This document shows positions 55,691 to 61,759 of a stretch of 64,000 bases of DNA, piece after piece. This stretch comes from an uncultured Gemmatimonadota bacterium (GTDB lineage Bacteria > Gemmatimonadota > Gemmatimonadetes > Palauibacterales > Palauibacteraceae). Every line of letters starts with the position of its first letter. The first letter of the stretch is position 1. The stretch lies in contig CAZFDK010000008.1 of the NCBI GenBank assembly GCA_964518305.1, positions 14,252 to 78,251 on the forward strand. Direction: 5' to 3'. The translations under genes were made by a program, and so were the position numbers. The notes beneath the pieces are model-generated. The model did not search any database. It saw nothing but the letters and a program-made list of their open reading frames with translations, and was not told the DNA's origin.

Positions 55691-56472
55691 TCAGAAACGG
55701 TATTCGAGGGACATCACGCCGTAGTGGAGCCACGCGAACGCGTAGACCGAGTCGACGTCGGCCCCGCCCTGCACGTCCGGTACCCCGCCGAGAGCGTCCA
55801 GCGGTCGCTCAGGTCGTATCGCGCCTGGAGGGTGACGTCCTCCGCCCGGCCGGGGCCACCCGCCAGTGCGTCGGCATCGAGCTCCGCGCGCCAACGCCGG
55901 GCGAACCGCCAGCCCCCGGAGAGGTGCAGGAGGTGGACGAAGCCGAAATCGGTCTTCCCGCTGGTCGTCCCTCCCTGCTCCAGCTCGACGACGGCGTCCC
56001 GGATCTTGGCCGTGAAACCGACGTTCCAGGTCCAGCTCCGGCCGTGGTGGAAGCGGTACAGGTACGAGAGGCGATAGGAGTTAAAATGGTACGTGACGTC
56101 CGTGGGCACGTCGGGGGCGTAGCTGGCGCCGGCGAAGTCGACGGTCTCCGGAAGACGGCCCGATTCCGTGAACTGGAGCGGCGCCACGAGCGCCCGGAGG
56201 GCATGGCTCTCGTCCAGTCTCCACGTCACGTAGAGCCGTCCCGCTGGCCACGGCCCACCCCCCGTCAGGTCCTGCAGGAAGAAACGAGTGCCGGACGGGT
56301 CGTTCGGGATCTGGACGTCGTTTCTCGTCTGCCAGACCGGGCCCGTCTCGAGCTCGACGACGAAGGGCGAGCGCTCGTCATCCACGGACGGCTCCTGTGC
56401 GGACGCCGTGCCCGCGGCGAGCGTCACCGCCATCCCCAGTCCGACGACCGCAGCGGCGCGCGCCGCTATCAG
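55691..56472 (-). pseudogene. Outer-membrane beta-barrel protein gene with a 1-nt frameshift near its 3' end
   Basis: Signal peptide ...AVTLAAGTASA/QEP and alternating beta-strand pattern. At ~55774-55776 the frame that reads ...WTLSAGYRT must shift to continue as VQGGADVDSVYAFAWLHYGVMSLEYRF* (canonical barrel C-terminus, stop at 55691). The start is ambiguous: CTG at 56472 overlapping the nosL stop, or ATG at 56433. Confidence 0.55.
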
Positions 56473-56972
56473 GACCCGCCCGTTCGCCCGGGCGACGACT
56501 CGACGCCTCCCGTGTCCGCCATGGCCCGGAGCTCCGCCCAGGTGAGGACGCTCGCGCCCAGCTCCCCGGCCAAGCTGTCGGCCCGGGAGGACGCAGTGGC
56601 GACGATGCCGAAAGCCATGGGGGTCTGGAGATCCTCTCCCTGCACGTAAGCGGCGGAGTCCGCCGTCAGCCACTCGCGGGTCGCGTAGTCCTTGACCCAG
56701 CGACCCAGGATCCGGACGTCGGTATGCTCCTGCCGATAGAGGACGACGGCGGCCACGTCGTCGAACACGCGGTACGCCCTTCCCTCCTCGTCCTCGATCA
56801 TCAGGCCCGCGGCGTGGCGCTCCTCGCTGATGATCATCCCGCACCGGTGGCAGACGGCCTGGCCGTAGCTGATCCTCGGCGGCTCCACGGGCCGGGGCTC
56901 CTGCTCGCAAGCGACAGTCGTTCCGGCCAGCAGCGCCAGACCCGCGGCCGCGACGTCACGTGCTGTCGTCAT
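56469..56972 (-). CDS. nosL: NosL-family copper-chaperone-like lipoprotein
   Basis: Lipobox-like LLAGTTVAC. CHRCGMIISEERHAAG...FDDV pattern. GGAGG SD 6 nt upstream. Confidence 0.68.
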   Translation of the reverse strand: MTTARDVAAAGLALLAGTTVACEQEPRPVEPPRISYGQAVCHRCGMIISEERHAAGLMIEDEEGRAYRVFDDVAAVVLYRQEHTDVRILGRWVKDYATREWLTADSAAYVQGEDLQTPMAFGIVATASSRADSLAGELGASVLTWAELRAMADTGGVESSPGRTGGS

Positions 56973-57413
56973 TCTCGCCCTCCTGTACCGCGACTCGTGC
57001 CCGTACGCCGCTCCGGACGCTAACCCGCTTCTGCACGGATATCCTGCGAATTCTTGTAGACCAGCGCGACGCCGGCGATCGGCGCCAAAATCCACCCGAA
57101 GAAGAAGCGCAGCCGCGCTCCCACGGCCGACCCCCAACGTAAGGTGACCCGCGACCGTCGACCGGGCGAGGGGAGGGATCCGGAAGTATGTGGCGCAGCG
57201 GCACACCCGAGGCTCGTACGATTCAGACCGAGGCCGCGGCGTGCCCACGAGCTCGTGCACCGGCGTCAGCTCCGTCTGCAACTGGAGGAGGAGCGGCGCC
57301 TCTCTACGGGACGGTGGGGACCGTCCTCGGCCACCCGATCCCGGAAAGTCTGCTCGACGAAGGGGCCGGAGCGATAGAGCTGGCTCGCCGGGCTCGAGGG
57401 CGCCGGGTCGTCG

Positions 57414-57599
57414 GTGTGGAACGGCGCCTACGGGCTCGAAACCGCCTGCACGGCTGCGCCCGAGGTGTCCGCCGTCGTCCAGGAGACAGGAACCTCCACT
57501 TCCGTGGACGCACTCTTCCTGTGGCTCGTCCTGGCGACCGCCGCCGTCGTGGCCGTGAGCTTCCTGCACCTGGAGCGGGCGAAGGGTGCAGCAGGATAG
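57414..57599 (+). CDS. Possible small tail-anchored membrane protein (61 aa)
   Basis: GC3 is about 84% by hand count. C-terminal TM ALFLWLVLATAAVVAVSFL. GTG start without a clear SD. It lies in an otherwise unassigned 740-nt gap. Confidence 0.25.
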   Translation: MWNGAYGLETACTAAPEVSAVVQETGTSTSVDALFLWLVLATAAVVAVSFLHLERAKGAAG

Positions 57600-57710
57600 A
57601 CGGTCGAACGGTCCGAACTCCAGAGTCCCGGAATCGGACCGATTGCGAGAGAACGTGGACAGGAAGTTTGAGAGAAGCCGCAATCTCACGGGTTCCGCGA
57701 ACCCACGCCT

Positions 57711-58134: not shown

Positions 58135-58965
58135 TCAGGCGAACAGCTCTCCCTGCTCGGAGAGTTCGGAAGGCGCCACGGCGTCCTGTCCGAGTCGACG
58201 CTGCGTCCGCCGGGCGCTCTCGGGGGCGTGCCCCTCGTAGTCGTCGTTGTAGAAGCCGAATACGGTGTCCTTCTTCTCGGCCGCTTTCCGGAGCACCCGC
58301 ACCCATGCCTCCCGCTCCTCGGAACGCTCGAGCAGGCCCTCGCCCGGTGGGGGAGGCGAGTCGGGCCGATCCTTTCCCATCCATCGCACGTACAGCAGCG
58401 GACCGGGCGCCACGCGGGCGGCCCGGAGGGCGGCGCGGGCGCCGAGCCACTGCCCCTGGCTCACGGCCAGCGAGACGCCCTGGCGGTGGAGGAGGCCCAG
58501 GACCTCCTCGTTGAGCCACGCCGGGTCCCGAAACTCCACGGCGAAGTTCGGCTCCGGCGGGCGAGCGTCCAGGAACGCGGCCAGGGCCTCGCCGCCCTCC
58601 TCGGGGCCGAAGCCCGGCGGGAGCTGCACGAGAACGGGACCCAGCTTCTCGCCCAGCTTCCCCGCCCGGCGGCAGAACTCCTCCAGCCGCTTCGGGTGAC
58701 CCTCGAGCCTGGCCTCGTGGGTGATCTCGCCCGGCACCTTCACGGCAAAGAGGAAGCCCTCGGGCGTCTCCCGCCGCCACTTCTCGAAGCGCTCGGCCGG
58801 CGGCGCTCCGTAGAACGTGGAGTTCACCTCCACCACGTCGAAGGCACGGGCGTAGGTGGATAGCCGGTTCTCGGAGGGGGTGCCCGGCGGGTAGAAGCGG
58901 TCCTGCCAGACCTCGTACGCCCATCCCTGCGTGCCGATGTGGATCCGACCGTCCTGATCGCTCAC
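58135..58965 (-). CDS. DUF72-family protein
   Basis: IGTQGWAY..W...FYP, VEVNSTFY, FLFAVKVP, LVQLPP and FAVEFR motifs. Confidence 0.85.
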   Translation of the reverse strand: MSDQDGRIHIGTQGWAYEVWQDRFYPPGTPSENRLSTYARAFDVVEVNSTFYGAPPAERFEKWRRETPEGFLFAVKVPGEITHEARLEGHPKRLEEFCRRAGKLGEKLGPVLVQLPPGFGPEEGGEALAAFLDARPPEPNFAVEFRDPAWLNEEVLGLLHRQGVSLAVSQGQWLGARAALRAARVAPGPLLYVRWMGKDRPDSPPPPGEGLLERSEEREAWVRVLRKAAEKKDTVFGFYNDDYEGHAPESARRTQRRLGQDAVAPSELSEQGELFA

Positions 58966-59005
58966 GGTCCCAGCCGGCCCACCCGGGAGCGCCTCCCCGG
59001 AGACG

Positions 59006-59917
59006 TCACAGTGGTCCTCCCGACGCGCGTTTCACGGAAAGATCCCAGAGTCCGAGGGCCCCCAGCAGCGCCAGATTCGGAAAGAGGAGGGGTGCGAAGA
59101 CCGGGGCGCCGTACAGCAGCTTCTCCGCCAGTCCCGCGCGGGAGGCCTCGAGCAGAGGGTCCAGGTGCAGGGCGAGGCCGGCGACGCCGACCACCGCCTC
59201 GAGCCCCATCACCCAGAAGCCGGCTCTCAGGAATGGGCGGCTCACACTCCGTGCGAGCAGGGTCAACAGATAGCCCACGGCCAGGGCGGCCGCCGCCACC
59301 GGGATCCACTCGGTAACGAAGAAGAAGCCGTTCTGGGCATGGTCGGCCAGCGACAGCGCGAAGTTGCCCGCGAACCCGCCGAGCGTGAGGACCAGTATCC
59401 ACTCGGCCCATCCCTCCAGCGACGGGTCCACCATCCGGTTCAGGAGCAGCAGAAACCCGAGCCCCGTGAAGGACAGGGGGGCTGCGAAGGGCGCGGAGTA
59501 GACCAGGCTGCGGAGTGTGGTCTCCTGGAAGAACTGCCCCTCCAGGTGGAGGATCAGGCCGGTCACGCCGACCAGTATCGAGGCTCCTCCGACGAGCCAC
59601 CCGGCGGCCCGGGACGCGCCCGAAGGGGGGACGCCGTCCCCGCGCCTCGCTGCACGCACGACGGTAACGGCGAGGACCGCGGCGGCGACGGCCGAGAAGA
59701 TGGGCGGGACGTACTCGGCGCGGTGGGCGAAGTCGTTCGCCTCGTGGACGATCCAGGTGTCGGCCACGAGGAATCCGAAGTTCATCGTGACGAAGATCTC
59801 GAGGAGGAGCGGCCGGTCCCTGAGCCAGGCCCACGCCCTCCCGCTCCGGCCCCCGTCGGGCGCCCGGCCCCGTCCGGCCCCCTCTCCTGCGGTCTGCCGG
59901 GCTTCATTCCTGTCCAT
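59006..59917 (-). CDS. Integral membrane protein, 8 TM with internal 4-TM duplication; partner of the octaheme cytochrome
   Basis: Overlaps the upstream cytochrome gene by 14 nt. LHLEGQFF...LVYSAPFAAPL is paralleled by LHLDPLLE...LLYGAPVFAPL. Conserved His residues sit at the helix ends. Confidence 0.7.
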   Translation of the reverse strand: MDRNEARQTAGEGAGRGRAPDGGRSGRAWAWLRDRPLLLEIFVTMNFGFLVADTWIVHEANDFAHRAEYVPPIFSAVAAAVLAVTVVRAARRGDGVPPSGASRAAGWLVGGASILVGVTGLILHLEGQFFQETTLRSLVYSAPFAAPLSFTGLGFLLLLNRMVDPSLEGWAEWILVLTLGGFAGNFALSLADHAQNGFFFVTEWIPVAAAALAVGYLLTLLARSVSRPFLRAGFWVMGLEAVVGVAGLALHLDPLLEASRAGLAEKLLYGAPVFAPLLFPNLALLGALGLWDLSVKRASGGPL

Positions 59918-61187
59918 GTGCGGCGCTCCGGAGCTCCGCGGCCTGCTCCCGGAGCTCCAGCATGTGGGTCATGATCTCGTAGTTGCCGTGCCACTGCACG
60001 TAGTCGGCGCCTCCCATGAACGCACCGTGCTTGGCCGTCCGCCCATAATAGTGCCAGAGATCGAAATAGGTGATCTCGATGGTCTCGTCGAAGGGCTGCG
60101 GCGTCAGCAGCCCGTCGGCGCGGAGGCTGTCCATGAGCGACCGCGCCTCCCGGATCTTCGCGTTCGTGGAGGCCACCACCTCTTCGGCCTGGCCGTAGAA
60201 CTCCTCGGTGTGATCCGAGGTGTGACAGGTGTTGCAGACCTCCTTCATGGCGTTTTGTCCCCGCTGGTAGTGGTCCCGCTTCTCGGAGATCGGGGCGAAG
60301 AGGAACCAGGAGAGCCGCTCCGTCACGTCGTGGGTCACGCCCGCTCCGGCCAGACCGCTCATGTGGCAGGTGGAGCAGGTGGGCACCGGCATGTCGTCCA
60401 CGCCGAGCTCCCCGGGCGGGGCGTCCAGGTTCATGCCGCCGCGGATGCTGTTGAAGATCACTCCGTGCTTGGACTCCCGGAAGATCTCGAGCTGCGAGTG
60501 GTCGGGCCCCATGTGGCACTGGCCGCAGGTCTGGGGCATCCGGGCCAGCCTGATGGACGTCTGGTGCCGGGCGTGGCAGGCCGTGCACTGGCCGATGGAA
60601 CCGTCCTCGTTGGGCTTGCCGATGGAGTGGCAGGAGATGCACCCGGACTCCCGGGCCGCCTCCCCCTCGATCTGGGCCAGCCGGTTGGGCGGTCGGTCCA
60701 CGGCGCCCGGGTGGTATCTCTCGGCCCGGGCGATCTGCTCCCCGGTGAACGGCTCACTCCCCATCACCGCGGCGTAGGCGGGAGCGGCGTGCCGGCTCCG
60801 GGCGAACTGCCGGTACTGGTCGGCGTGACACGACTGGCAGTTCTTCGAGGTCACCTCCGTCGTGATCTCGAAGCCGCGGTGGCTGGTGGTGTCCTGCCCG
60901 GAACGGGGCCGGTGGCAGTCGAGGCAGTTGGTGTTGGCCTCGGCGTGTCGGCTCCGCTCGAACTCGCGGACGATGGCCCGGGTCTCCCGCCGGTGGCAGG
61001 CGGCGCACTCACCGGTGGCTTTCACCAGATCCGGCGAGGGCTGCTGGGTGACCGAGGCCGGACGCTCCCGGTTCAGCAGGAAGGCCCCCACCACGAGGGC
61101 CGTCGCGATGACGACGGTGAGGAAGATCGAGCCGAAGGAGAGCCCATCGCCTCCGTCGGTCTCGGGCTCGTCGGGAGAAGCCGTCAT
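59904..61187 (-). CDS. Membrane-anchored octaheme c-type cytochrome (hydroxylamine-oxidoreductase-like family)
   Basis: N-terminal TM. Eight CXXCH motifs (CAACH, CLDCH, CQSCH, CISCH, CTACH, CGQCH, CSTCH, CNTCH). The C-terminal YFDLWHYYGRTAKHGAFMGGADY is HAO-family-like. Confidence 0.85.
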   Translation of the reverse strand: MTASPDEPETDGGDGLSFGSIFLTVVIATALVVGAFLLNRERPASVTQQPSPDLVKATGECAACHRRETRAIVREFERSRHAEANTNCLDCHRPRSGQDTTSHRGFEITTEVTSKNCQSCHADQYRQFARSRHAAPAYAAVMGSEPFTGEQIARAERYHPGAVDRPPNRLAQIEGEAARESGCISCHSIGKPNEDGSIGQCTACHARHQTSIRLARMPQTCGQCHMGPDHSQLEIFRESKHGVIFNSIRGGMNLDAPPGELGVDDMPVPTCSTCHMSGLAGAGVTHDVTERLSWFLFAPISEKRDHYQRGQNAMKEVCNTCHTSDHTEEFYGQAEEVVASTNAKIREARSLMDSLRADGLLTPQPFDETIEITYFDLWHYYGRTAKHGAFMGGADYVQWHGNYEIMTHMLELREQAAELRSAAHGQE

Positions 61188-61282
61188 GGGGAGCTCTGTG
61201 CCGGGCTCCTGCAGCTCGGACCGGGGACGCGGCCCGCGGGTGGGACGACGCCTTTAGGTGTGTCGCCACGCCGCGGGGCGCG

Positions 61283-61759
61283 TCAACCCGTCGTCGGTCC
61301 CCTGCCCTCGTCCGGCGCGGCGGTGGGCGGCCAGGCGAAGTCCACGGGCAGCGCTGCGGGGTGGGGCACCAGCAGGACCGCGCCAGCCCCGAACCCGGAC
61401 CGGCGAACGTCCTCCAGCGACCCGTACAGCAGCCGCTCCCGCCCGGTGCCCAGTCCGGACGCAACGAGGGCGGGCGTCTCCGCGGAGACGCCGGCGTCGT
61501 GCAGCCGGCCGGCGGCCTCGGATGCCGACAGTCGGGGTCCGAAGCGGACCATCACGTGCCGCCGATCGTCCCATGCCGCGGAGAGTCGCGGGAGCGCGTC
61601 GCCGAATCCCGCTCCCTCGCCGGGTTCGTCGTCTCCCGCGTCGAACCCGACCACGAACGCTGGCTTCGGATCCGGCAGACCGGCCCGCTCGGCAGCCAGG
61701 GCCGCCGCGGCCGGGAGCCCGGCGCCCGCCTCCGCGCTGCCGCCGTCGATCCGGCTCAC
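61283..61759 (-). CDS. Tetrapyrrole-methylase-like protein, C-terminal subdomain only
   Basis: HVMVRFGPRLSASEAAGRLHDAGVSAETPALVASGLGTGRERLLYGSLEDV...AVLLV resembles the C-terminal half of CobA/CysG-type methylases. No N-terminal GxGxGD half. GTG start overlaps the receptor stop (GTGA). Confidence 0.5.
   Translation of the reverse strand: MSRIDGGSAEAGAGLPAAAALAAERAGLPDPKPAFVVGFDAGDDEPGEGAGFGDALPRLSAAWDDRRHVMVRFGPRLSASEAAGRLHDAGVSAETPALVASGLGTGRERLLYGSLEDVRRSGFGAGAVLLVPHPAALPVDFAWPPTAAPDEGRGPTTG

What the first reader, a model, noticed from the sequence alone, without database searches (positions are those of the whole stretch)
59006..61187. HAO-like octaheme cytochrome with a novel internally duplicated 8-TM partner
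59904-61187 encodes a TM-anchored protein with eight CXXCH motifs and an HAO-family-like C-terminus. Its stop region overlaps by 14 nt the start of a 303-aa protein with eight predicted TM helices. These are arranged as two homologous 4-TM halves (LHLEGQFF...LVYSAPFAAPL versus LHLDPLLE...LLYGAPVFAPL) with conserved histidines. As I recall them, known HAO modules use c-type (NapC/NrfH/cM552) partners, or a single-TM HaoB. A polytopic His-bearing partner would be a different way to connect an octaheme enzyme to the quinone pool. No nitrification or anammox genes are nearby, so the physiological reaction (nitrite, hydroxylamine, sulfite or other reduction) is open.
Basis: partly seen in the sequence, partly recalled or inferred. 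Interest (0 to 1): 0.6.

Follow-up and report, generated by a model that had tools for sequence, protein, structure and literature searches.

The report
Octaheme reductase with unknown membrane partner
Two overlapping genes encode a membrane-anchored eight-heme enzyme of the hydroxylamine-oxidoreductase family and an unannotated eight-helix membrane protein with four invariant histidines; the pair travels together across about 15 bacterial phyla and probably links the enzyme to the membrane quinone pool in a way nobody has tested.

Summary
ORF 59904-61187(-) encodes a 427-aa protein with an N-terminal TM anchor and eight CXXCH motifs. It matches Pfam PF13447, and its closest solved relative is IhOCC (4qo5). 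ORF 59006-59917(-) overlaps it by 14 nt and encodes a 303-aa protein with eight TM helices. Its two halves are homologous (hhalign 99.2%, E 2e-19).

The 8-TM protein has no Pfam, NCBIfam or PDB sequence match. A confident AlphaFold model (pLDDT 88) has no PDB fold match. It is not NrfD/PsrC-like, cytochrome-b-like or NapC/NrfH-like.

Relatives occur in 424 species genomes from about 15 phyla. In 78 of 79 evaluable loci, octaheme coding sequence lies directly upstream. No third gene is conserved. Four His plus Asp, Asn, Glu and Tyr residues are invariant and sit on the predicted periplasmic face.

The octaheme keeps the HAO Asp-His pair but has no conserved cross-link Tyr, so a reductive enzyme is predicted. 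The substrate is unknown.

My best reading is that the 8-TM protein is the enzyme's membrane subunit and probably its quinol-oxidising partner. This is inferred, not shown.

I found no publication describing it. This scan noted the same kind of pair three times on other DNA. I class it as a new variant of a known kind.

The parts
59904..61187 (-). Gene for a membrane-anchored HAO-family octaheme cytochrome c (427 aa)
   Evidence: ORF. PF13447 E 8.6e-24, 84.7 bits against a cut-off of 21.9. PDB sequence hits: IhOCC 4qo5 at 2e-37, then HAO, HDH and HOX at about 1e-18. Foldseek matches HAO-family chains only.
61068..61136 (-). N-terminal TM anchor of the octaheme protein (residues 18-40, FGSIFLTVVIATALVVGAFLLNR), followed by the invariant R42-P43
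   Evidence: Hydropathy. Unusually conserved for an anchor: F18 97%, F22 99%, A35 91%, R42-P43 100% of 70 homologues.
60222..61007 (-). Span holding the eight CXXCH heme-binding motifs: 60993-61007, 60912-60926, 60825-60839, 60627-60641 (motif 4, the catalytic heme by homology), 60573-60587, 60513-60527, 60363-60377 and 60222-60236
   Evidence: All Cys and His of the motifs are invariant in 40 homologues.
60498..60503 (-). Asp229-His230, aligned with the distal-pocket Asp267-His268 of Nitrosomonas HAO
   Evidence: HMMER alignment to 4fas. Invariant in 40 of 40.
60000..60002 (-). Tyr396 in GGADYVQW, one candidate equivalent of the HAO cross-link Tyr467. Most relatives have Phe here.
   Evidence: Tyr467 sits in GGWTYTEGW of 4fas. 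The alignment to the window is by eye only, because hhalign failed. Family residues at this column: Phe in 68, Tyr in 6, motif not found in 3, of 77 loci.
59904..59917 (-). 14-nt overlap between the stop of the octaheme gene and the start of the 8-TM gene (ATGGACAGGAATGA)
   Evidence: Many of the related loci show overlaps of 8-20 nt.
59006..59917 (-). Gene for the 8-TM partner (303 aa), an unannotated family
   Evidence: ORF. No Pfam, NCBIfam or PDB match. AlphaFold2 pLDDT 88.3, pTM 0.86. No PDB fold match, best E 0.1.
59423..59821 (-). First four-helix half (residues 33-165), with N46, D53, H58, E68, P71, G117, G120, H124, Y140, P143 and P147
   Evidence: hhalign of the two halves, 99.2%. 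Conservation.
59018..59422 (-). Second four-helix half (residues 166-300), with N185, D192, H193, N196, E203, W204, G244, G247, H251, P272 and P276
59744..59746 (-). His58, at the periplasmic end of TM1
   Evidence: Invariant in 70 of 70. Topology from the positive-inside rule.
59546..59548 (-). His124, at the periplasmic end of TM3 (GxxGxxxH)
   Evidence: Invariant in 70 of 70.
59339..59341 (-). His193 (with Asp192), at the periplasmic end of TM5
   Evidence: Invariant in 70 of 70.
59165..59167 (-). His251, at the periplasmic end of TM7 (GxxGxxxH)
   Evidence: Invariant in 70 of 70.

Best explanation
The two genes form a self-contained, horizontally mobile module.

The first product is a reductive-type octaheme cytochrome c of the HAO family. 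It is held at the outer face of the cytoplasmic membrane by an uncleaved N-terminal helix. The second product is its dedicated eight-helix membrane subunit. That subunit consists of two homologous four-helix bundles, and all of its invariant polar residues lie on the periplasmic face: four His, two Asp, Asn, Glu and Tyr.

Proposed mechanism (inferred, not shown):
- Quinol is oxidised at the periplasmic side of the 8-TM subunit.
- Its protons are released to the periplasm.
- Its electrons pass to heme 1 of the octaheme protein, which lies only about 20 residues beyond the anchor. They pass either directly or through one or two b-type hemes held by the pairs His58/His124 and His193/His251.
- They then travel down the heme chain to the five-coordinate heme 4, where a small oxidised substrate is reduced. 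The likeliest substrates are nitrite, NO or hydroxylamine.

Because every candidate ligand lies on one face of the membrane, the module itself would not be electrogenic. In this it resembles NrfH-NrfA.

Shown here: gene structure, family membership of the octaheme protein, internal duplication, conservation pattern, predicted topology, obligate synteny, and absence of any known family or fold for the partner.

Inferred: physical complex, quinone coupling, b-heme binding, direction of catalysis and substrate.
For: Obligate pairing:
- 78 of 79 evaluable loci from different species have octaheme coding sequence directly upstream.
- So do 4 of 4 distant homologues looked up individually. In one of them, L001, the octaheme gene is frameshifted but keeps all eight motifs.
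- So do all 7 copies in the window's phylum.
- A more distant subfamily (octaheme 41% identical, partner 34% over its C-terminal half) keeps both the pairing and the four His.
- No third gene is conserved within 3 kb.
- Pairwise distances of the two proteins correlate, r 0.66, with 0 of 2000 permutations reaching that value.
- Short gene overlaps recur.

Periplasmic-face conservation:
- H58, H124, H193, H251, D53, D192, N46, N196, E203 and Y140 are invariant in 70 of 70.
- K/R counts place the N-terminus and the even loops inside, which puts the His outside.
- GxxGxxxH on TM3 and TM7 is the kind of glycine spacing that makes room for a porphyrin. This rests on established knowledge of cytochrome b and is an inference here.

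Anchor: the octaheme TM anchor carries near-invariant residues. That fits specific helix packing with a partner.

Octaheme chemistry:
- PF13447, with IhOCC as the best PDB hit.
- The Asp-His pair is invariant.
- There is no conserved Tyr at the candidate cross-link positions.
- Enzymes lacking the cross-link are reductases (PMC8042395).
Against: - No cofactor or quinone site was demonstrated.
- No complex prediction was possible.
- All four His lie at the membrane-water interface rather than inside the bilayer, which is unusual for b-heme ligands.
- The partner has no detectable similarity to any known quinol dehydrogenase.
- TM-anchored octahemes of another clade exist without this partner. 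A partner is therefore not a general need of anchored HAO-type enzymes.
- The substrate is unknown. HAO-family proteins outside the nitrifier and anammox clades have also been proposed to act on sulfur species (PMC9213671).
- The window's own protein has Tyr at one candidate cross-link column.
- Correlated distances are expected for any neighbouring genes that are inherited together.
Confidence: 0.5

Rival explanations
1. The 8-TM protein is a non-redox accessory: a membrane dock, stabiliser or dedicated maturation/assembly factor for the octaheme protein. Electrons reach the enzyme from soluble c-type cytochromes or from a bc-type or alternative complex III.
For: There is no similarity to any redox membrane protein. 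It has no CXXCH. The His lie at the interface rather than within the bilayer. Dedicated heme-handling proteins with periplasmic His are known next to unusual cytochromes (CcsA/NrfE type, established knowledge). The genome has an ActC-like NrfD gene elsewhere.
Against: All eight heme motifs are standard CXXCH, so no special lyase is needed. The protein has no WWD-type motif. The 1:1 pairing with translational coupling suggests stoichiometric subunits. The strict conservation of 10 polar residues looks more like a catalytic or cofactor site than a docking surface.
Confidence: 0.2
2. The module runs oxidatively. The octaheme enzyme oxidises hydroxylamine or a similar compound, for detoxification or energy, and the 8-TM protein passes the electrons into the quinone pool. 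This would be a one-step replacement for cytochrome c554 plus cM552.
For: The Asp-His pair of oxidative HAO is retained. The window's protein has Tyr396 in GGADYVQW, which by eye resembles GGWTY467TEGW of Nitrosomonas HAO. Many host lineages are aerobes. The own genome lacks nitrate and nitrite reductases that would supply a substrate for reduction.
Against: The column is Phe in 68 of 77 relatives. The local alignment has no statistical support. The closest solved relatives, IhOCC and Kustc0458, both lack the cross-link and act as reductases (PMC8042395). No ammonia monooxygenase or other hydroxylamine source is evident.
Confidence: 0.12
3. The 8-TM protein is a channel or transporter for a substrate, a product or protons of the periplasmic reaction, for example nitrite or ammonium, rather than an electron-transfer subunit.
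For: It is a polytopic protein with an internal duplication, a common transporter architecture. Conserved Asp and Asn lie within TM1 and TM5.
Against: Substrate and product are already periplasmic. The duplication is parallel, with both halves N-in, and conservation is concentrated on one face only rather than along a pore. There is no match to any transporter family or fold.
Confidence: 0.08

Closest known systems
IhOCC (Igni_0955) of Ignicoccus hospitalis, PDB 4qo5
   Same: It is the best solved relative (phmmer E 2e-37; profile E 3e-48). It has eight hemes, is membrane-associated, has a colinear C-terminal helical region and lacks the Tyr cross-link. It reduces nitrite and hydroxylamine in vitro (my recollection of Parey et al. 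2016, a paper not in the held library; 'octaheme nitrite reductase IhOCC' in PMC9250108).
   Different: IhOCC is 521 aa against 427 aa here, and it has Asp-Val where this family has Asp-His. No 8-TM partner has been reported for it in the papers I read. I could not check its gene neighbourhood.
Kustc0458/Kustc0457 (HAOr) of Kuenenia stuttgartiensis, PDB 6h5l
   Same: It is a reductive HAO without the cross-link and has the same CHMGPDH motif after heme 6. It is the top Foldseek hit. It reduces nitrite to NO (PMC8042395).
   Different: It is a soluble complex with a diheme cytochrome c partner, has a roughly 54-residue insertion in the C-terminal region, and has no polytopic membrane subunit.
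Epsilon-Hao / reverse-HURM module (HaoA plus a NapC/NrfH-type tetraheme CycB/cM552) and NrfHA
   Same: The proposed logic is the same: a periplasmic multiheme reductase fed from quinol by a dedicated membrane subunit, with both half-reactions on the periplasmic side (PMC5276818, PMC5317091, PMC7814187).
   Different: Here the partner has no heme c motif, eight TM helices instead of one, and no sequence or fold similarity to NapC/NrfH.
NrfD/PsrC-type quinol-interacting subunits (PF03916)
   Same: They have eight TM helices arranged as two four-helix bundles, no heme, and a quinone site near the periplasmic face (established knowledge of Thermus PsrC). They also serve multiheme enzymes such as MccA, and the Qrc and ACIII complexes.
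   Different: There is no PF03916 match for the protein or at the locus. There is no Foldseek match to PsrC or ActC structures. hhalign against the genome's own NrfD-family protein gives 0.2%. No adjacent 4Fe-4S subunit gene is present.

Membership tests
HAO family of octaheme cytochromes c (Pfam PF13447; HAO/HDH/IhOCC clade) | Sequence match to the family model above the curated cut-off | tested here: met
   PF13447 scores 84.7 bits against a cut-off of 21.9. The PDB hits at E below 0.001 are all HAO-family chains.
HAO family of octaheme cytochromes c (Pfam PF13447; HAO/HDH/IhOCC clade) | Eight CXXCH heme-binding motifs in the family order, with His (not Lys) as proximal ligand of the catalytic heme | tested here: met
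   There are eight CXXCH and no CXXCK. All are invariant in 40 homologues. Actual heme attachment was not testable.
HAO family of octaheme cytochromes c (Pfam PF13447; HAO/HDH/IhOCC clade) | Distal Asp-His pair (Asp267-His268 of Nitrosomonas HAO) | tested here: met
   D229-H230 aligns to D267-H268 of 4fas and is invariant in 40 of 40. HAO Tyr334 is replaced by Phe295 here; the family consensus has Trp at this position.
Oxidative HAO/HOX/HDH (P460 enzymes) | Conserved Tyr that cross-links to heme 4 of the neighbouring subunit (Tyr467 of Nitrosomonas HAO) | tested here: inconclusive
   Tyr467 lies in GGWTYTEGW. HMMER and hhalign do not align this stretch to the family. In every plausible local alignment (window residues 391-401) the family residues are the invariant Met, Val, Gln, Trp or His, or Phe/Tyr396 (Phe in 68 and Tyr in 6 of 77 loci; the window has Tyr). 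A family-wide cross-link Tyr is therefore most likely absent. The window's own Tyr396 remains unresolved.
NapC/NrfH/cM552 quinol dehydrogenases | One N-terminal TM helix plus four (or two) CXXCH hemes | tested here: not met
   The partner has no CXXCH and eight TM helices. There is no Pfam hit.
NrfD/PsrC family (PF03916) | Match to the family model or fold, and an adjacent 4Fe-4S (NrfC/PsrB-type) subunit | tested here: not met
   There is no Pfam hit. A whole-genome PF03916 search rings only at another contig. hhalign gives 0.2%. Foldseek finds no PsrC or ActC match. No ferredoxin-type gene is conserved nearby.
Membrane di-heme cytochromes b (FdnI/NarI/CybB/PF01292, PF00033) | Family or fold match, with His pairs at two depths that hold hemes on both sides of the membrane | tested here: not met
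   There are no Pfam, NCBIfam or PDB matches. The four invariant His all lie at one face. Heme b binding as such could not be tested with these tools.
HaoB of ammonia oxidisers | Single N-terminal TM helix with a periplasmic domain, encoded after haoA | tested here: not met
   The position after the hao-like gene is the same, but this protein is polytopic with only short loops. The description of HaoB is from my own knowledge. No HaoB sequence was compared.

The most novel reading that the evidence does not exclude
The 8-TM protein founds a new class of quinol dehydrogenase or quinone reductase with a fold not represented in the PDB. It is a duplicated four-helix bundle that holds b-heme(s) or a heme-free quinone site at the periplasmic membrane surface. 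It wires HAO-type multiheme enzymes directly to the quinone pool, replacing NapC/NrfH-type cytochromes in hundreds of species from about 15 phyla.
Probability: 0.45. Interest if true: 0.75.

Novelty: new variant of a known kind. Interest (0 to 1): 0.6.

Why it matters
HAO-family octahemes outside nitrifiers and anammox bacteria are routinely annotated as hydroxylamine dehydrogenase, nitrite reductase or even nitrate reductase, and they are counted that way in metagenomic nitrogen budgets.

This clade is highly conserved: the best 120 database hits are 61-89% identical to the window's protein. Its partner gene is found in 424 species genomes. It always comes with a membrane protein that no database names.

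If that protein is a new kind of quinol-oxidising subunit, two things follow. It adds a fourth solution, beside NapC/NrfH, NrfD-type and ImcH/CbcL-type proteins, to the problem of feeding periplasmic multiheme enzymes. It also defines a compact two-gene respiratory or detoxifying module that could be expressed and assayed directly.

In the window's genome the module is the only candidate nitrite, NO or hydroxylamine enzyme found, beside two clade-II nosZ genes. That makes its product relevant to whether such N2O-reducing bacteria also make or consume N-oxides.

Tried and rejected
**NrfD/PsrC-like quinol subunit.** Rejected. There is no Pfam hit, no ring at the locus in a whole-genome PF03916 search, hhalign gives 0.2% and there is no Foldseek match.

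**Known cytochrome b or transporter families.** Rejected on the same searches.

**Informative domain fusions of the 8-TM family.** None found. Longer database members have no Pfam domain, apart from one GNAT fusion that looks like a read-through.

**A third conserved gene.** None within 3 kb in 80 loci.

**Residue-level mapping of the cross-link Tyr.**
- The profile search stops before the region in HAO.
- hhalign of the verified HAO peptide against the family profile failed.
- phmmer of that peptide finds only Nitrosomonas HAO.
- I first guessed that Y460 of Kustc0458 marked the position. I dropped this because Kustc0458 is known to lack the cross-link (PMC8042395).

**AlphaFold2 model of the octaheme protein.** It is poor (pLDDT 68.5), as expected without hemes, so I made no structural argument from it.

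**Promoter and terminator scan of 58700-61500.** Nothing found.

**Literature.** Eight full-text searches found no description of the partner. Kuenenia kuste2457 is listed at 433 aa (PMC3482989), similar in size. I could not test whether it belongs to this clade or has such a neighbour.
Full report
**Observation**

The minus strand carries two ORFs exactly as described. ORF 59904-61187 encodes 427 aa and ORF 59006-59917 encodes 303 aa. The second gene's ATG lies inside the last codons of the first (…CAC ATG GAC AGG AAT GA…), giving a 14-nt overlap.

The 427-aa protein has one N-terminal hydrophobic helix (residues 18-40). It has eight CXXCH motifs, at residues 61, 88, 117, 183, 201, 221, 271 and 318, and no CXXCK.

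The 303-aa protein has eight hydropathy peaks. An AlphaFold2 model built on 60 homologues has mean pLDDT 88.3 and pTM 0.86, and shows eight long helices plus two short periplasmic helices.

**The octaheme protein**

It matches Pfam PF13447 (Multi-haem_cyto) at 84.7 bits against a cut-off of 21.9.

Against PDB sequences the best match is IhOCC of Ignicoccus hospitalis (4qo5, E 2e-37; 3e-48 with a family profile). Next come Nitrosomonas HAO, Kustc0458, HOX and HDH. Foldseek with a weak model (pLDDT 68.5) again finds only HAO-family chains. Published phylogenies place IhOCC with HAO/HDH as 'clade 1' of this superfamily (PMC9250108).

The alignment to 4fas puts the window's Asp229-His230 on the distal Asp267-His268 of HAO, and the pair is invariant in 40 of 40 relatives. 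HAO Tyr334 corresponds to Phe295 here; the family consensus has Trp.

**The cross-link tyrosine**

I recalled the HAO sequence around Tyr467 and verified it letter for letter against 4fas. Tyr467 sits in GGWTYTEGW.

Neither HMMER nor hhalign aligns this stretch to the family, so the equivalence is by eye only. The candidate window segment is M391-G-G-A-D-Y396-V-Q-W-H400-G. Every one of these columns is an invariant or near-invariant non-Tyr residue except 396. Column 396 is Phe in 68 of 77 loci and Tyr in 6, and the motif was not found in the other 3; the window itself has Tyr. At that column IhOCC has Trp and Kustc0458 has Val, and both lack the cross-link (PMC8042395, PMC9250108).

The only nearby family-wide Tyr residues are Y380/Y381 and Y403. 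IhOCC also has Tyr at the Y381 and Y403 positions. A family-defining cross-link Tyr is therefore most likely absent, which predicts reductive chemistry (PMC8042395). The window's own Tyr396 stays an open curiosity.

**The 8-TM protein**

It has no match in Pfam, NCBIfam or PDB sequences. The confident model has no PDB fold match: best Foldseek E is 0.1 and TM-scores are at most 0.44.

It is not NrfD/PsrC-like. A whole-genome PF03916 search rings only at an ActC-like gene on another contig. hhalign of the family profile against that protein gives 0.2%.

The internal duplication is real, at hhalign 99.2% and E 2.4e-19. The motifs repeat between the halves:
- N…D…H at the end of helix 1
- EW(I)P at the start of helix 2
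- GxxGxxxH on helix 3
- (L/I)Yx(A)PxxAPL before helix 4

Among 70 syntenic homologues, H58, H124, H193, H251, D53, D192, N46, N196, E203, Y140 and several Pro and Gly residues are invariant. Family-wide K/R counts give 3.0, 1.9 and 2.1 in the even loops and a K/R-rich N-terminus, against 0.4-1.2 in the odd loops. This places the N-terminus inside. All four His then sit at the periplasmic ends of TM1, 3, 5 and 7, on the side where the octaheme domain is.

**Distribution and synteny**

The family is widespread but unnamed:
- more than 1100 hits in the 90%-clustered database, all with either no name or 'hypothetical protein'
- 534 clusters at 50% identity
- 424 of the 185,579 species-representative genomes

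The named records span Gemmatimonadota, Rhodothermales and Bacteroidota, Poribacteria, Marinimicrobia, Planctomycetota, Verrucomicrobiota, Acidobacteriota, Myxococcota, Latescibacterota, Zixibacteria, Eisenbacteria, Calditrichales, Nitrospirales and an alphaproteobacterium.

In the 80 best loci, 77 have a multi-CXXCH ORF ending at the start of the 8-TM gene on the same strand, and 75 of these have exactly eight motifs. Of the three loci without such an ORF, two are cut by contig ends and one of these still shows the last two motifs. The third, L089, keeps only the last motif. Among the 77, L073 has a frameshift but all eight motifs. That makes 78 of 79 evaluable loci.

Four distant homologues looked up individually show the same arrangement. 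One of them, in a complete genome, has a frameshift in the octaheme gene.

In a sample of 301 genomes of the window's own phylum, the 8-TM gene is in 6 and PF13447 is in 36. Every 8-TM copy is next to a PF13447 gene.

A more distant subfamily keeps the pairing and the four His. Other TM-anchored octahemes, only 25-27% identical, lack the partner.

No third gene recurs within 3 kb, and neighbours differ from locus to locus. This is a patchy, self-contained and probably laterally moving two-gene module. The two proteins' pairwise distances correlate (r 0.66, Mantel 0 of 2000). That is expected for co-inherited neighbours and shows no partner swapping.

The octaheme's TM anchor is conserved to a degree unusual for a mere anchor: F18 97%, F22 99%, A35 91% and R42-P43 100%.

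**Genomic setting**

The neighbours in the window are a DUF72 gene, a TonB-dependent receptor, an orphan NosL-like gene, and DinB and PDZ proteins. None is conserved with the pair.

The genome is a 3.09-Mb assembly, 89.8% complete. From its best named hits it is probably Gemmatimonadota, though I did not verify this. It has only this one PF13447 gene.

Searches found no narG, napA, nirS or hcp, and nothing reaching the nirK cut-off. They did find two Sec-type (clade II) nosZ genes, each split at contig ends. Absences in an incomplete genome are provisional.

**Mechanism**

The strict 1:1 pairing, the translational coupling, the conserved anchor and the periplasmic-face conservation make a stoichiometric membrane complex the likeliest reading (about 0.85).

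Heme 1's motif starts about 20 residues after the anchor, so heme 1 should lie near the membrane surface, close to the His/Asp/Glu cluster of the partner.

I propose that the partner oxidises quinol at that face and hands electrons to heme 1. It would do so either directly or through b-heme(s) sandwiched between helices 1 and 3 of each bundle. The GxxGxxxH spacing would make room for a porphyrin there. I put quinone coupling at about 0.55 and b-heme at about 0.35-0.4.

With all ligands on one face, the module would not itself be electrogenic. The substrate is unproven. Nitrite, NO or hydroxylamine are favoured by homology (PMC8042395), but sulfur substrates have been proposed for untested HAO clades (PMC9213671).

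The rivals are a non-redox accessory role, oxidative operation, and a channel role. They are listed with their evidence in the rival explanations.

**Comparison and novelty**

The enzyme is a member of the HAO family, nearest to the IhOCC and HAOr type. The partner belongs to none of the following: NapC/NrfH/cM552, diheme c (Kustc0457), NrfD/PsrC, known cytochromes b, or HaoB.

In eight full-text searches I found no paper describing it.

This scan noted the same kind of pair before on other DNA (e1-2345500, e1-2449407 and e1-5182587). Those are unchecked AI notes that agree with this reading but are not independent evidence.

I rate it a new variant of a known kind: a quinol-linked reductive octaheme module with an unprecedented membrane subunit.

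**Limits**

- Heme attachment, cofactors, direction of catalysis and substrate all need experiments.

Noticed in passing
Own genome, outside the window: G000 C7:88561-89307, C4:109957-110703, C6:2-697, C31:2-700: Two Sec-type (clade II) nosZ genes, each split at contig ends. Searches found no narG, napA, nirS, hcp or bona fide nirK in the 89.8%-complete genome. This is the profile of a non-denitrifying N2O reducer. The orphan NosL-like gene at window 56469-57689 may relate to these.
   Followed up: partly
L006-L009 (G176:C42, G116:C9, G232:C6, G018:C123): A second clade of TM-anchored octaheme HAO-family proteins in the same phylum (421-530 aa, 25-27% identical, CHMG(F/M)DH motif). It has no 8-TM partner and no adjacent multi-CXXCH gene, so its electron route is also unknown.
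   Followed up: partly
L001 (CP030158.1, 5283-6011), L073 (1830-2613) and L089 (about 2759): The octaheme gene next to an intact 8-TM gene is frameshifted in L001 and L073 and truncated to its last heme motif in L089. These could be sequencing errors or early decay of the module.
   Followed up: partly
window 60000-60002 (Tyr396 of the octaheme protein): A Phe/Tyr polymorphism at a candidate cross-link column. Tyr occurs in the window and in 6 of 77 related loci from unrelated phyla (Salinivenus, Gemmatimonadales, Verrucomicrobia, Calditrichales), which suggests repeated switching.
   Followed up: partly
window 61142-61187: The window's octaheme protein has a 15-residue acidic N-terminal extension (MTASPDEPETDGGDG) before the anchor that most homologues lack. 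No alternative start codon exists at the consensus start, where codon 16 is CTC.
   Followed up: yes
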